In this document: piece by piece, positions 3,001-6,000 of the stretch | How the letters are laid out: every line of letters starts with the position of its first letter | How positions within the stretch are numbered: position 1 is the stretch's first letter | Origin: Escherichia coli | GTDB taxonomy: Bacteria; Pseudomonadota; Gammaproteobacteria; Enterobacterales; Enterobacteriaceae | DNA length: 64,000 bases | Assembly (NCBI RefSeq): GCF_016903815.1 | Contig: NZ_CP069973.1 | Direction: 5' to 3' (one strand) | Program-made: the position numbers

Positions 3001-6000
3001 TGGTGCATTTCACGCTAAAACTCGACGATGGCACCACCGCCGAGTCTACCCGCAACAACGGTAAACCGGCGCTGTTCCGCCTGGGCGATGCTTCTCTTTC
3101 TGAAGGGCTGGAGCAACACCTGTTGGGGCTGAAAGTGGGCGATAAAACCACCTTCTCGCTGGAGCCCGATGCGGCGTTTGGCGTGCCGTCACCGGACCTG
3201 ATTCAGTACTTCTCCCGCCGTGAATTTATGGATGCAGGCGAGCCAGAAATTGGCGCAATCATGCTTTTTACCGCAATGGATGGCAGTGAGATGCCTGGCG
3301 TGATCCGCGAAATTAACGGTGACTCCATTACCGTTGATTTCAATCATCCGCTGGCCGGGCAGACCATTCATTTTGATATTGAAGTGCTGGAAATTGATCC
3401 GGCACTGGAGGCGTAACATGCAGATCCTGTTGGCCAACCCACGTGGTTTTTGTGCCGGGGTAGACCGCGCTATCAGCATTGTTGAAAACGCGCTGGCCAT
3501 TTACGGCGCACCGATTTATGTCCGTCACGAAGTGGTGCATAACCGCTACGTGGTCGATAGCCTGCGCGAGCGTGGGGCTATCTTTATTGAGCAGATCAGC
3601 GAAGTGCCGGACGGCGCAATCCTGATTTTCTCTGCACACGGTGTTTCTCAGGCGGTACGTAACGAAGCGAAAAGCCGTGATTTGACGGTATTCGACGCCA
3701 CCTGTCCGCTAGTGACCAAAGTGCATATGGAAGTCGCCCGCGCCAGTCGCCGTGGCGAAGAATCTATTCTCATCGGCCACGCCGGGCACCCGGAAGTGGA
3801 AGGGACGATGGGGCAGTACAGCAACCCGGAAGGGGGAATGTATCTGGTTGAATCGCCAGACGATGTATGGAAGCTGACGGTCAAAAACGAAGAGAAGCTC
3901 TCCTTTATGACCCAAACCACGCTGTCGGTGGATGACACGTCTGATGTGATCGACGCGCTGCGTAAACGCTTCCCGAAAATTGTCGGTCCGCGCAAAGATG
4001 ACATCTGCTACGCCACGACTAACCGTCAGGAAGCGGTACGCGCCCTGGCAGAGCAGGCGGAAGTGGTGCTGGTGGTCGGTTCGAAAAACTCCTCTAACTC
4101 CAACCGTCTGGCGGAGCTGGCCCAGCGGATGGGCAAACGCGCGTTTTTGATTGACGATGCGAAAGATATCCAGGAAGAGTGGGTGAAAGAGGTTAAATGC
4201 GTCGGCGTGACTGCGGGCGCATCGGCTCCGGATATTCTGGTGCAGAATGTGGTGGCACGTTTGCAACAGCTGGGCGGTGGTGAAGCCATTCCGCTGGAAG
4301 GCCGTGAAGAAAATATTGTTTTCGAAGTGCCGAAAGAGCTGCGTGTCGATATTCGTGAAGTCGATTAAGTCATTAGCAGCCTAAGTTATGCGAAAATGCC
4401 GGTCTTGTTACCGGCATTTTTTATGGAGAAAACATGCGTTTACCTATCTTCCTCGATACAGACCCCGGCATTGACGATGCGGTCGCCATTGCCGCCGCGA
4501 TTTTTGCCCCCGAACTCGACCTGCAACTGATGACCACCGTCGCGGGTAATGTTTCGGTTGAGAAAACGACCCGCAACGCCCTGCAACTGCTGCATTTCTG
4601 GAATGCGGAGATTCCGCTCGCCCAGGGAGCCGCTGTGCCGCTGGTACGCGCACCGCGTAATGCAGCATCTGTGCACGGCGAATCGGGAATGGCTGGCTAC
4701 GACTTTGTTGAGCACAACCGAAAGCCACTCGAGATACCAGCGTTTCTGGCGATTCGTGATGCCCTGATGCGTGCACCAGAGCCTGTTACGCTGGTGGCCA
4801 TCGGCCCGTTAACCAATATTGCGCTGTTACTTTCACAATGCCCGGAATGCAAACCGCATATTCGCCGTCTGGTGATCATGGGCGGTTCCGCCGGTCGCGG
4901 CAACTGCACACCAAACGCCGAGTTTAATATCGCTGCCGATCCAGAAGCGGCAGCCTGTGTCTTCCGTAGCGGCATCGAAATCGTCATGTGCGGTCTGGAT
5001 GTCACCAATCAGGCAATATTAACCCCTGACTATCTCGCTACTTTGCCGGAGTTGAATCGCACCGGAAAAATGCTACACGCCCTGTTTAGCCACTACCGTA
5101 GCGGCAGTATGCAAAGTGGACTACGTATGCACGATCTTTGCGCTATTGCCTGGCTGGTGCGCCCGGACCTGTTCACTCTCAAACCGTGTTTTGTGGCAGT
5201 GGAAACTCAGGGCGAATTTACCTCAGGCACGACGGTTGTTGATATCGACGGTTGCCTGGGCAAACCTTCAAACGTGCAGGTGGCGCTGGATCTGGATGTA
5301 AGAGGCTTCCAGCAGTGGGTAGCTGAGGTGCTGGCTCTGGCGCTCTAATAATAAAACAAGGAGGTTTTAATGACGTATGGCGATGCATATCTGGCAGGGT
5401 GGAAAAATATCTTTAATTATAATGGCGTTGCTACCCGATTTGAGTTCTGGTCGTTTATCATCGGTAGCGCAATAATTTGCCTGCTACCGCTTTTAAGTTG
5501 GTTGTTTGCAATAACCATTGACGATGATTATGGCGCTTTCATTTTTTTTGCGCTGCCCACATCATTTATTTTAACGTTGATTTTTGCCGTGCCGGGAATG
5601 GCGTTAGGCTTCAGAAGGATGCACGATATCGGACGTTCAGGATGGTGGTTTTCCATCGGCGTGTTGATCCCTTATGCAGGCGTAATTCTGTTTATACTGT
5701 GCTGCCTGCCGTCAAAACCCCAAGAGCAGGCATAATGACAGACGGCGTGACGCAGTGGTTGGCGCGTCATGCCTTTCACTGATATTCCTCCCTGTTTATC
5801 ATTAATTTCTAATTATCAGCGTTTTTGGCTGGCGGCGTAGCGATGCGCTGGTTACTCTGAAAACGGTCTATGCAAATTAACAAAAGAGAATAGCTATGCA
5901 TGATGCAAACATCCGCGTTGCCATCGCGGGAGCCGGGGGGCGTATGGGCCGCCAGTTGATTCAGGCGGCGCTGGCATTAGAGGGCGTGCAACTGGGCGCT

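What the first reader, a model, noticed from the sequence alone, without database searches (positions are those of the whole stretch)
5349..5895. Small DUF805-like membrane protein gene inserted between rihC and dapB
A 121-codon ORF with a canonical RBS encodes a hydrophobic protein carrying RFEFW and RRMHDIGRSGWW motifs typical of the YhaH/YhaI (DUF805) family. The rihC-dapB gap is ~380 bp longer than I recall for K-12, almost exactly the size of this gene, and the gene is visibly AT-richer than its neighbours. DUF805 proteins have no assigned function.
Basis: partly seen in the sequence, partly recalled or inferred. Interest (0 to 1): 0.5.

Follow-up and report, generated by a model that had tools for sequence, protein, structure and literature searches.

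The report
Old DUF805 membrane gene after rihC
The small membrane-protein gene between rihC and dapB is real and belongs to the DUF805 family, but it is an old, already annotated resident of this spot that K-12 and most other E. coli have lost, not a new insertion, so the finding is ordinary.

Summary
The ORF is at window 5370..5735 (+) and encodes 121 aa. It has an AAGGAGG ribosome-binding site and lies 21 nt after the rihC stop. It matches Pfam DUF805 (E 9e-20) and keeps every family-invariant residue. K-12 lacks it: the rihC-dapB gap is 166 bp against 547 bp here.

The "insertion" reading has the direction wrong. An orthologous 120-121 aa DUF805 gene sits directly after rihC in E. albertii, three cryptic Escherichia lineages, the Klebsiella pneumoniae complex, K. 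oxytoca and Metakosakonia. Presence is therefore ancestral.

Complete E. coli genomes show two structural states. 4378 have one shared K-12-type junction. 1047 carry the gene, and RefSeq already names it "DUF805 domain-containing protein". Carriers fall into two deep allele classes, 84% nt and 76% aa identical:
- about 940 genomes, including known B2 strains;
- 106 genomes identical to the window, probably the ST405 lineage;
- one natural recombinant between the two classes.

dN/dS of 0.06-0.34 shows a constrained coding gene. The AT-richness comes mostly from amino-acid composition.

The modelled protein has three transmembrane helices, N-terminus in the cytoplasm, with a conserved cytoplasmic R-x-E-x-W / RRMHD patch. 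It is only 28-35% identical to YhaH and YhaI. Its biochemical function is unknown. The only family phenotype I found is that YhaH is needed by two phages. Low interest.

The parts
4434..5348 (+). rihC (ribonucleoside hydrolase C), the upstream gene and probable co-transcription partner
   Evidence: 304-aa ORF. Annotated rihC in the identical strain 7/2. Its 3' half carries haplotype differences linked to the presence/absence state.
5358..5364 (+). Shine-Dalgarno sequence AAGGAGG, 5 nt before the ATG
   Evidence: Read directly. An AAGGA/GGAG-type element is present at the same place in the other Escherichia and Klebsiella loci.
5370..5735 (+). DUF805-family gene: 121 aa, three predicted transmembrane helices (about 27-49, 57-81, 94-113), predicted N-in/C-out
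   Evidence: Pfam E 9.3e-20. Annotated WP_021522992.1 'DUF805 domain-containing protein'. Hydropathy. AF2 model with pLDDT 92. dN/dS 0.06-0.34.
5744..5773 (+). GC-rich hairpin closing the rihC-DUF805 unit (GGCGUGACGC...GCGUCAUGCC), followed by a weak U tract (CUUUCACU). Its 3' arm marks where homology with K-12 resumes.
   Evidence: MFE -19.9 kcal/mol, z -2.0. Equivalent hairpins fold in the B2, E. albertii, MOD1 and K-12 sequences. The outer stem is conserved with wobble changes only, and there is no formal two-sided covariation. It is not scored as a terminator by the scan.
5770..5895 (+). dapB upstream regulatory region, unchanged relative to K-12
   Evidence: 99.5-100% identical among the window, B2 and K-12 from 5769 onward.
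5896..6717 (+). dapB, the downstream neighbour
   Evidence: 273-aa ORF. Annotated dapB.

Best explanation
What it is. It is the Escherichia copy of an old, locus-resident DUF805 gene. The gene forms the last cistron of the rihC transcription unit in Enterobacteriaceae.

Shown by tool results:
- It belongs to DUF805.
- It is conserved as an intact frame under purifying selection.
- It occupies the same position directly after rihC in at least three genera.
- E. coli has exactly two structural states: the gene, or one shared deletion junction.
- The carriers hold two deeply diverged alleles that recombine.

Inferred:
- One ancient deletion removed the RBS, the CDS and about 10 nt, and left about 16 nt of untraceable filler before the hairpin. 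That deletion haplotype now occupies about 81% of complete E. coli genomes. Lineages that include known B2 strains kept the gene. The window's lineage (probably ST405) either kept it or regained it by homologous recombination.
- The gene is co-transcribed with rihC. The gap is 21 nt, it has its own strong RBS, no promoter-like or terminator-like site lies between, and a hairpin follows it.

How the protein most likely works (inferred; about 0.25 for this sub-claim). It is a non-essential inner-membrane protein with three transmembrane helices, N-terminus in the cytoplasm and C-terminus in the periplasm. Its only strongly conserved surface is a cytoplasm-facing charged patch: R23, E25 and W27 at the start of TM1, and R82-R83-x-H85-D86...S90-G91-W-W between TM2 and TM3. 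In relatives the same module sits at the C-terminus of cytoplasmic kinase, TIR, zinc-ribbon and GYF domains. This suggests a membrane-embedded anchoring or partner-binding module rather than a transporter or enzyme. Its paralogues yhaH and yhaI respond to envelope stress and to stationary phase.
For: Identity:
- Pfam DUF805 E 9.3e-20.
- All six family-invariant residues (R23, W27, P75, R82, R83, P101) and the near-invariant residues G19, H85, D86, S90 and G91 are kept.
- RefSeq annotation in strain 7/2 and in all carriers listed.

Real gene:
- dN/dS is 0.06-0.34 over 15 pairs.

Ancestral position:
- The gene follows rihC directly in E. albertii, MOD1-EC7003, E. whittamii and SCPM-O-B-8794.
- In the Klebsiella pneumoniae complex it is 46% identical with no gaps over 117 aa.
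- It is also there in K. oxytoca and Metakosakonia.
- K. aerogenes keeps the gene and its downstream neighbours although rihC is replaced.

Two states in E. coli:
- 1047 genomes carry the gene and 4378 carry a K-12-type junction that is 93.9-100% identical, together 5425 of 5426.
- SMS-3-5 (phylogroup F) lacks the gene.

Alleles:
- 106 genomes match the window at 99% or more, and about 940 match at 83-84%.
- HH35 is a recombinant between the two classes.
- dS between the window and B2 alleles is 0.43, as deep as against E. albertii.

No mobile-element features.

Topology and structure:
- Three hydrophobic segments.
- AF2 model with pLDDT 92 and pTM 0.81, helices 3-12, 23-50, 52-86 and 92-111.
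- DUF805 is C-terminal to the domains fused to it in relatives (Pkinase shown; TIR_2, zinc-ribbon and GYF_2 also found).

Paralogue biology:
- yhaH and yhaI are modulated by Cpx (PMC2731931).
- YhaH rises toward stationary phase and is repressed by SdsR in Salmonella (PMC5137417).
Against: - The deletion endpoints cannot be reconstructed. The roughly 45-nt K-12-type segment has no significant similarity to carrier sequence, so 'deletion' rests on phylogenetic distribution and not on junction anatomy.
- The distribution within Escherichia is patchy. The genome-contig scan reported no hit labelled E. fergusonii, E. marmotae or E. ruysiae. That scan relied on two N-terminal peptide patterns, which also missed Klebsiella.
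- The DUF805 gene tree does not follow the species tree. B2 to E. albertii dS is 0.39, about the same as B2 to window at 0.43, while rihC dS to E. albertii exceeds 1. Horizontal exchange among Escherichia lineages has therefore occurred, and the window's lineage may have re-acquired the gene.
- No expression data were examined, so co-transcription is inferred.
Confidence: 0.85

Rival explanations
1. A foreign DUF805 gene was recently inserted by horizontal transfer into the rihC-dapB spacer of this strain's lineage, and K-12 shows the ancestral empty site.
For: - The gene is AT-richer than its neighbours.
- It is present in only 19% of complete E. coli genomes.
- The rihC-dapB interval is a known island hotspot. 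Klebsiella and Salmonella carry a citrate island there (PMC2735749), and E. whittamii carries a PTS island there.
- The window's allele sits in one narrow lineage, with 106 identical copies. For that lineage alone, re-acquisition by recombination is possible.
Against: - Orthologues lie at the identical position and in the same orientation in three genera.
- There is no integrase, transposase, tRNA or flanking repeat.
- The GC deficit is mostly in codon position 1, which reflects amino-acid composition.
- Only Escherichia and the Klebsiella group hold close relatives among 1.8 billion representatives.
- All 4378 empty sites share one junction that includes about 16 nt not found in carriers.
Confidence: 0.05
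2. The protein is an inner-membrane factor that some phages exploit for genome entry, as its paralogue YhaH is. Phage pressure maintains the presence/absence polymorphism and the deep allele classes.
For: - A YhaH in-frame deletion (P66-A82) makes E. coli TK001 resistant to phages PhiWec188 and PhiWec190, and complementation restores sensitivity (PMC12548472).
- There is a presence/absence polymorphism, and the alleles are as diverged as between species.
- omega is 5-10 times higher than for rihC or dapB.
- DUF805 genes occur as phage morons. phrog_12855 matches at E 2e-13. Stx phages 75/02 and POCJ13 carry an unannotated intact DUF805 ORF.
Against: - Overall dN/dS stays below 1.
- Variable positions are not clearly concentrated in the predicted periplasmic segments. 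They make up 9 of 15 positions there, against 14 of 38 cytoplasmic and 32 of 68 in the membrane.
- rihC and ispH also have elevated dS, so the deep haplotypes are regional and not specific to this gene.
- Only 10 of 50,697 phage records hold a relative.
- PADLOC gave no hit.
- The phenotype belongs to a 33%-identical paralogue and rests on one study.
Confidence: 0.07
3. The gene works together with RihC, for example as a membrane partner for nucleoside or ribose handling. This would explain their conserved adjacency.
For: - Adjacency with rihC is conserved in Escherichia, Klebsiella and Metakosakonia, with gaps of 21-69 nt and the same strand.
Against: - K. aerogenes keeps the DUF805 gene without rihC upstream.
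- 81% of complete E. coli genomes, and Salmonella LT2 (PMC2735749), keep rihC without it.
- A 121-aa protein with three transmembrane helices and a cytoplasmic charged patch does not resemble known nucleoside transporters.
- The whole ileS-lspA-fkpB-ispH-rihC block is syntenic anyway, so adjacency may be plain inheritance.
Confidence: 0.05
4. The ORF is a decaying or non-functional remnant that merely persists in some lineages.
For: - The gene is dispensable, since most E. coli lack it.
- omega is comparatively high, 0.2-0.3.
- Frameshifted or truncated variants exist in databases (P0011 in E. albertii, P0012, P0014, 45-aa forms).
Against: - An intact 120-121 codon frame is kept across three genera, with dS up to saturation and omega 0.06-0.34.
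- All family-invariant residues are retained.
- The strong RBS is conserved.
- 106 of 106 and about 940 of 940 complete-genome copies align over 96-100% of the query and are annotated as CDS in the rows shown.
Confidence: 0.03

Closest known systems
rihC-linked DUF805 genes of Klebsiella (K. pneumoniae complex, K. oxytoca) and Metakosakonia. These are annotated 'DUF805 domain-containing protein' or 'inner membrane protein yhaI', and appear as 'hypothetical orfs' flanking the citrate island in PMC2735749.
   Same: Same length (120-121 aa). Same position and strand directly after rihC in the ileS-lspA-fkpB-ispH-rihC block. 46-55% identity without gaps. Same MTYG..YL.GWK N-terminus, RRMHDIGRSG loop and LCCL C-terminal motif.
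   Different: In those genera the gene is followed by a convergent LysR gene that overlaps its 3' end, and then by citAB-type genes. In E. coli dapB follows directly.
E. coli K-12 YhaH and YhaI (DUF805 inner-membrane paralogues, b3103 and b3104)
   Same: Same Pfam family, same size, same three-helix layout, and the same R-x-E-[FY]-W and RR[LM]HD..RS.W motifs.
   Different: Only 28-35% identity. Different locus (next to yhaJ at 3.25 Mb). YhaH and YhaI have the basic GRARRKEYW version of motif 1 and a longer G-x-N-R-[FY]-G-x-DP tail, which this protein lacks. The phage-dependence, Cpx and SdsR data apply to them and not to this gene.
Variable rihC-dapB interval of Enterobacteriaceae (13-kb citrate-fermentation island in K. 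pneumoniae and Salmonella LT2 locus II)
   Same: The same chromosomal interval shows presence/absence variation between strains and species (PMC2735749). E. whittamii and a related lineage carry a PTS/isomerase island there.
   Different: Here the variable unit is a single 366-bp gene lost by a small deletion. It is not a multi-gene metabolic island.
Phage-borne DUF805 membrane proteins (phrog_12855, category 'moron/auxiliary'; unannotated ORF in Stx phages 75/02 and POCJ13)
   Same: Same domain. The window protein matches phrog_12855 at E 1.9e-13 and the Stx-phage ORF at 35% identity.
   Different: The window gene is chromosomal, syntenic across genera and not in a prophage. Only 10 of 50,697 phage records hold a relative.

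Membership tests
DUF805 (Pfam PF05656) | Significant match to the family HMM over most of its length | tested here: met
   i-E 9.3e-20, 71.6 bits, residues 15-119 on model positions 2-106 of 111
DUF805 (Pfam PF05656) | Family-invariant residues (R..W at the start of TM1; P in TM2; RR.HD...SG loop; P in TM3) | tested here: met
   In a 44-sequence alignment the invariant columns are R23, W27, P75, R82, R83 and P101, and the near-invariant columns are G19, H85, D86, S90 and G91. The window protein has all of them.
DUF805 (Pfam PF05656) | Small polytopic membrane protein with three transmembrane helices | tested here: met
   Three hydropathy peaks at about 27-49, 57-81 and 94-113. AF2 helices 23-50, 52-86 and 92-111, pLDDT 92.
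DUF805 (Pfam PF05656) | Inner-membrane location with a cytoplasmic N-terminus | not testable with these tools
   Inferred only. The charge distribution is positive-inside (K12, R23, R82, R83, R89 against D51-D53). Relatives carry cytoplasmic domains fused N-terminally.
Orthologue of YhaH or YhaI | High identity and the same genomic context (yqjG-yhaH-yhaI-yhaJ) | tested here: not met
   33% and 30% identity by BLASTP. The locus is rihC-dapB, not yhaJ-adjacent.
rihC-linked DUF805 orthologue group of Enterobacteriaceae | Position directly 3' of rihC on the same strand, with collinear full-length similarity | tested here: met
   Escherichia species loci L004-L007. Klebsiella L013-L015, K. oxytoca L017 and Metakosakonia L018. 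46-55% identity, gapless.
Horizontally inserted island or mobile element | Integrase or transposase, tRNA target, flanking direct or inverted repeats, empty site in outgroups | tested here: not met
   No such ORFs. Only short, probably chance repeats. The outgroups carry the gene.
Known anti-phage defence protein (PADLOC models) | Match to a defence-system HMM | tested here: not met
   0 families at E <= 1
Intrinsic terminator (hairpin 5744-5773) | GC-rich stem followed by a U-rich tract | tested here: inconclusive
   A stable stem is present in all variants, but the tail is only CUUUCACU. The scan does not score it as a terminator. No two-sided covariation.

The most novel reading that the evidence does not exclude
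The rihC-linked DUF805 protein could be an inner-membrane entry factor for some coliphages, as its paralogue YhaH is reported to be. In that case the ancient deletion haplotype, the two allele classes with between-species depth, and their mosaics would be the trace of long-term phage-driven balancing selection on a 'receptor' in the cytoplasmic membrane. Prophage-borne DUF805 morons would then act as decoys or exclusion factors.
Probability: 0.07. Interest if true: 0.5.

Novelty: already known. Interest (0 to 1): 0.15.

Why it matters
It matters little beyond bookkeeping. The gene is already annotated in more than a thousand complete genomes.

- The analysis corrects the direction of the event: it is a loss in K-12-like E. 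coli, not a gain here.
- It shows that E. coli has a third DUF805 paralogue that the K-12 model strain cannot inform on.
- The gene could serve as a simple marker for certain lineages (one that includes known B2 strains, and the window's probable ST405 lineage).
- If DUF805 proteins turn out to be general phage-entry or envelope factors, this natural presence/absence and allele series would be a ready-made test set.

Tried and rejected
- Tracing the deletion junction. I tested whether the roughly 45-nt K-12 or O157-type segment between rihC and the hairpin derives from the 3' end of the DUF805 gene, by local alignment against 300-500 shuffles. It was not significant in any carrier. An apparent TGCCGT..GTCACA match is at chance level. 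The rihC terminal codons of the deletion type (..VP*/..AS*) resemble the Klebsiella rihC end (..AP*), so the left endpoint lies after the rihC stop.
- Flanking repeats. A 15-nt imperfect direct repeat lies at the start and stop codons. It is not conserved in the B2 allele and does not match the K-12 junction, so I treat it as chance.
- Enrichment of variable sites in predicted periplasmic segments. The trend is weak and rests on small numbers.
- Hairpin covariation. The formal count shows no pair changed on both sides.
- dapB regulation. The Bouvier et al. 2008 paper on ArgP and dapB is not held. From memory the ArgP footprint lies within about 100 nt upstream of the transcription start, so mostly inside the stretch that is identical to K-12. 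I did not verify this.
- Literature. Searches for the CFT073 locus tag c0037 and for PF05656 found nothing relevant.
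Full report
**Observation**

The window holds, in order, ispH, rihC (4434..5348), a 121-codon ORF (5370..5735) and dapB (5896..6717).
- The ORF has an AAGGAGG ribosome-binding site five nt upstream. Its start is 21 nt after the rihC stop.
- Its product carries RFEFW and RRMHDIGRSGWW.
- It matches Pfam DUF805 at i-E 9.3e-20 over almost the whole model.
- The window is identical here to E. coli strain 7/2. RefSeq annotates the ORF there as WP_021522992.1, 'DUF805 domain-containing protein'.
- K-12 has rihC and dapB 166 bp apart, against 547 bp here.
- GC falls to 39-44% over the gene.

**Anatomy of the difference from K-12**

- In a three-way alignment, homology with K-12 stops at the last two codons of rihC. 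It resumes at TCATGCC (window 5770), and from there to dapB all E. coli compared are 99.5-100% identical.
- Between these points K-12 has about 45 nt. Carriers have about 425 nt: the RBS, the CDS, a short spacer and the 5' arm of a hairpin.
- The K-12 segment has no significant similarity to any carrier sequence. The event cannot be reconstructed from junction anatomy.
- Each form, K-12 included, folds a GC-rich hairpin whose 3' arm is the invariant CAUGCC.
- The outer stem shows only wobble changes, and a formal count finds no pair changed on both sides.
- The tail is a weak U tract, and the terminator scan does not list the hairpin.
- No promoter-like or terminator-like site lies between rihC and the ORF. 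I therefore infer co-transcription with rihC.

**Direction of the event**

A scan of one genome per prokaryotic species found close relatives only in Escherichia: E. albertii, Escherichia sp. MOD1-EC7003, E. whittamii and a fourth species representative labelled E. coli SCPM-O-B-8794.
- In all four the gene lies directly after rihC.
- In two of them a PTS/sugar-isomerase island separates it from dapB.

An exhaustive profile search of 1.8 billion representatives found about 10,000 DUF805 clusters but only one other close group.
- That group is the Klebsiella protein P0016. It has the same length and is 46% identical without gaps.
- It is encoded in the block ileS-lspA-fkpB-ispH-rihC-DUF805.
- K. 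oxytoca and Metakosakonia massiliensis have the same arrangement.
- K. aerogenes keeps the gene and its downstream neighbours although rihC is replaced.
- Identity to the window proteins in Klebsiella and Metakosakonia is 92-94% for IspH, 80-83% for RihC and 46-55% for the DUF805 protein.

The gene is therefore an old, fast-evolving resident of this locus, and its absence from K-12 is a loss. A published comparison had already shown 'hypothetical orfs' between rihC and the citrate island in K. pneumoniae that are missing in Salmonella LT2. It also showed that the rihC-dapB interval varies (PMC2735749).

**Distribution in E. coli**

- Of 5426 complete genomes, 1047 carry the gene, always on the chromosome.
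- 4378 carry a K-12-type junction that is 93.9-100% identical. There are only two structural states, and the empty state has one origin.
- Carriers split into two allele classes.
  - About 940 genomes match the window at 83-84% nt. They include ST131, LF82, JJ1886 and APEC O2:K1:H7, which I know as phylogroup B2.
  - 106 genomes are 99% or more identical to the window. One of these is labelled O102:H6, which I associate from memory with ST405 (phylogroup D). The MLST genes are outside the window, so this is an inference.
- Strain SMS-3-5 (phylogroup F) lacks the gene.
- Strain HH35 has a clean recombinant allele. The first 170 nt or so are B2 type and the rest is window type. Matching chimeric proteins occur in public assemblies.

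**Selection**

- Between alleles and species, dN/dS is 0.06-0.34. The frame is under purifying selection.
- Constraint is 5-10 times weaker than on rihC, dapB or ispH, where omega is 0.00-0.07.
- dS between the window and B2 alleles is 0.43, similar to either allele against E. albertii.
- rihC and ispH also have unusually high dS among E. coli lineages (0.17-0.43, against 0.07-0.15 for dapB). The deep haplotypes are a regional feature.
- Sliding-window identity shows that the rihC 3' half is linked to the presence/absence state.
- The GC deficit lies mainly in codon position 1 (0.43 against 0.61-0.66), which reflects the Phe/Ile/Leu-rich composition. GC3 is 0.48 against 0.53-0.62. No integrase, transposase, tRNA or convincing flanking repeat is present.

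**The protein**

- Hydropathy gives three transmembrane segments.
- An AlphaFold2 model built on 44 homologues is confident (pLDDT 92, pTM 0.81). It has a short N-terminal helix and three long helices, the last kinked at the invariant P101.
- The charge distribution implies an N-in/C-out topology. So does the placement of DUF805 at the C-terminus of multi-domain relatives, whose added domains include Ser/Thr kinase, TIR, zinc-ribbon and GYF.
- In that topology the invariant R23/W27 and RR.HD..SG motifs face the cytoplasm.
- Identity to K-12 YhaH and YhaI is 33% and 30%. This is a third paralogue and not an orthologue.
- A PHROG of phage 'moron' membrane proteins matches at E 2e-13. Only 10 of 50,697 phage records hold a relative. 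Among them is an unannotated intact ORF in Stx phages 75/02 and POCJ13.

**Function**

I found no experimental work on this gene. For the paralogues:
- yhaH and yhaI are modulated by Cpx (PMC2731931).
- Salmonella YhaH accumulates toward stationary phase and is repressed by the sRNA SdsR (PMC5137417).
- An in-frame yhaH deletion makes E. coli TK001 resistant to two Stephanstirmvirinae phages, and complementation restores sensitivity (PMC12548472; PMC12695924).

My best mechanistic guess, at about 0.25, is a dispensable inner-membrane anchoring or partner-binding module that acts through its cytoplasmic charged patch.

The phage-entry reading would also explain the polymorphism, but it has little direct support.
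- omega stays below 1.
- Variable sites are not clearly periplasmic.
- The deep haplotypes extend into rihC.

A functional tie to RihC is weakened by K. aerogenes, and by the many genomes that keep rihC alone.

**Verdict**

The 'insertion' interpretation has the direction wrong. The gene is already annotated and common, and its function remains unknown like that of the rest of DUF805. Interest is low.

Noticed in passing
L005 3908-7409; L007 4052-7551: In E. whittamii and a related Escherichia lineage, an island lies between the DUF805 gene and the expected position of dapB. It encodes two cupin-type sugar-phosphate-isomerase-like proteins and PTS mannose-family IIB/IIC/IID components. With the citrate island of Klebsiella and Salmonella, this makes the rihC-dapB interval a recurrent indel hotspot.
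   Followed up: partly
L012 3023-3388 (E. coli HH35): The DUF805 allele is a clean mosaic. Nt 1 to about 170 are 100% B2 type and the remainder is 97-100% window type. The rihC 3' end is window-like. It looks like a short gene-conversion patch between the two allele classes.
   Followed up: yes
L021 2444-2833 (Shigella Stx phage 75/02; the same in POCJ13): An unannotated intact 129-aa DUF805 ORF lies in the nin region, on the strand opposite to its neighbours (moron-like). It is 35% identical to the window protein.
   Followed up: partly
window 3418-5348 (ispH, rihC): Synonymous divergence among E. coli lineages is unusually high here: dS 0.17-0.20 for ispH and 0.25-0.43 for rihC, against 0.07-0.15 for dapB. 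The pattern of relatedness within rihC is mosaic.
   Followed up: partly
window 4398-4422: A terminator-like hairpin after ispH (GCCGGT-cttgtt-ACCGGC followed by ATTTTTT) ends 12 nt before the rihC start codon. rihC and DUF805 transcription must therefore rely on read-through or on a promoter inside ispH. The consensus scan did not list this hairpin.
   Followed up: no
L013/L014 4314-4366; L017 3296-3363; L018 3338-3363: In Klebsiella and Metakosakonia a convergent LysR-family gene overlaps the 3' end of the DUF805 gene by 26-68 nt.
   Followed up: no
window 5368-5382 and 5733-5747: An imperfect 15-nt direct repeat (TAATGAC....GGCG) sits exactly at the start and stop codons of the ORF. It is not conserved in the B2 allele and does not correspond to the K-12 junction, so it is probably chance.
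   Followed up: yes
proteins P0011, P0012, P0014, P0181, P0185: Frameshifted or truncated versions of the gene occur in some E. albertii and E. coli assemblies. This indicates occasional decay in addition to the fixed deletion.
   Followed up: no
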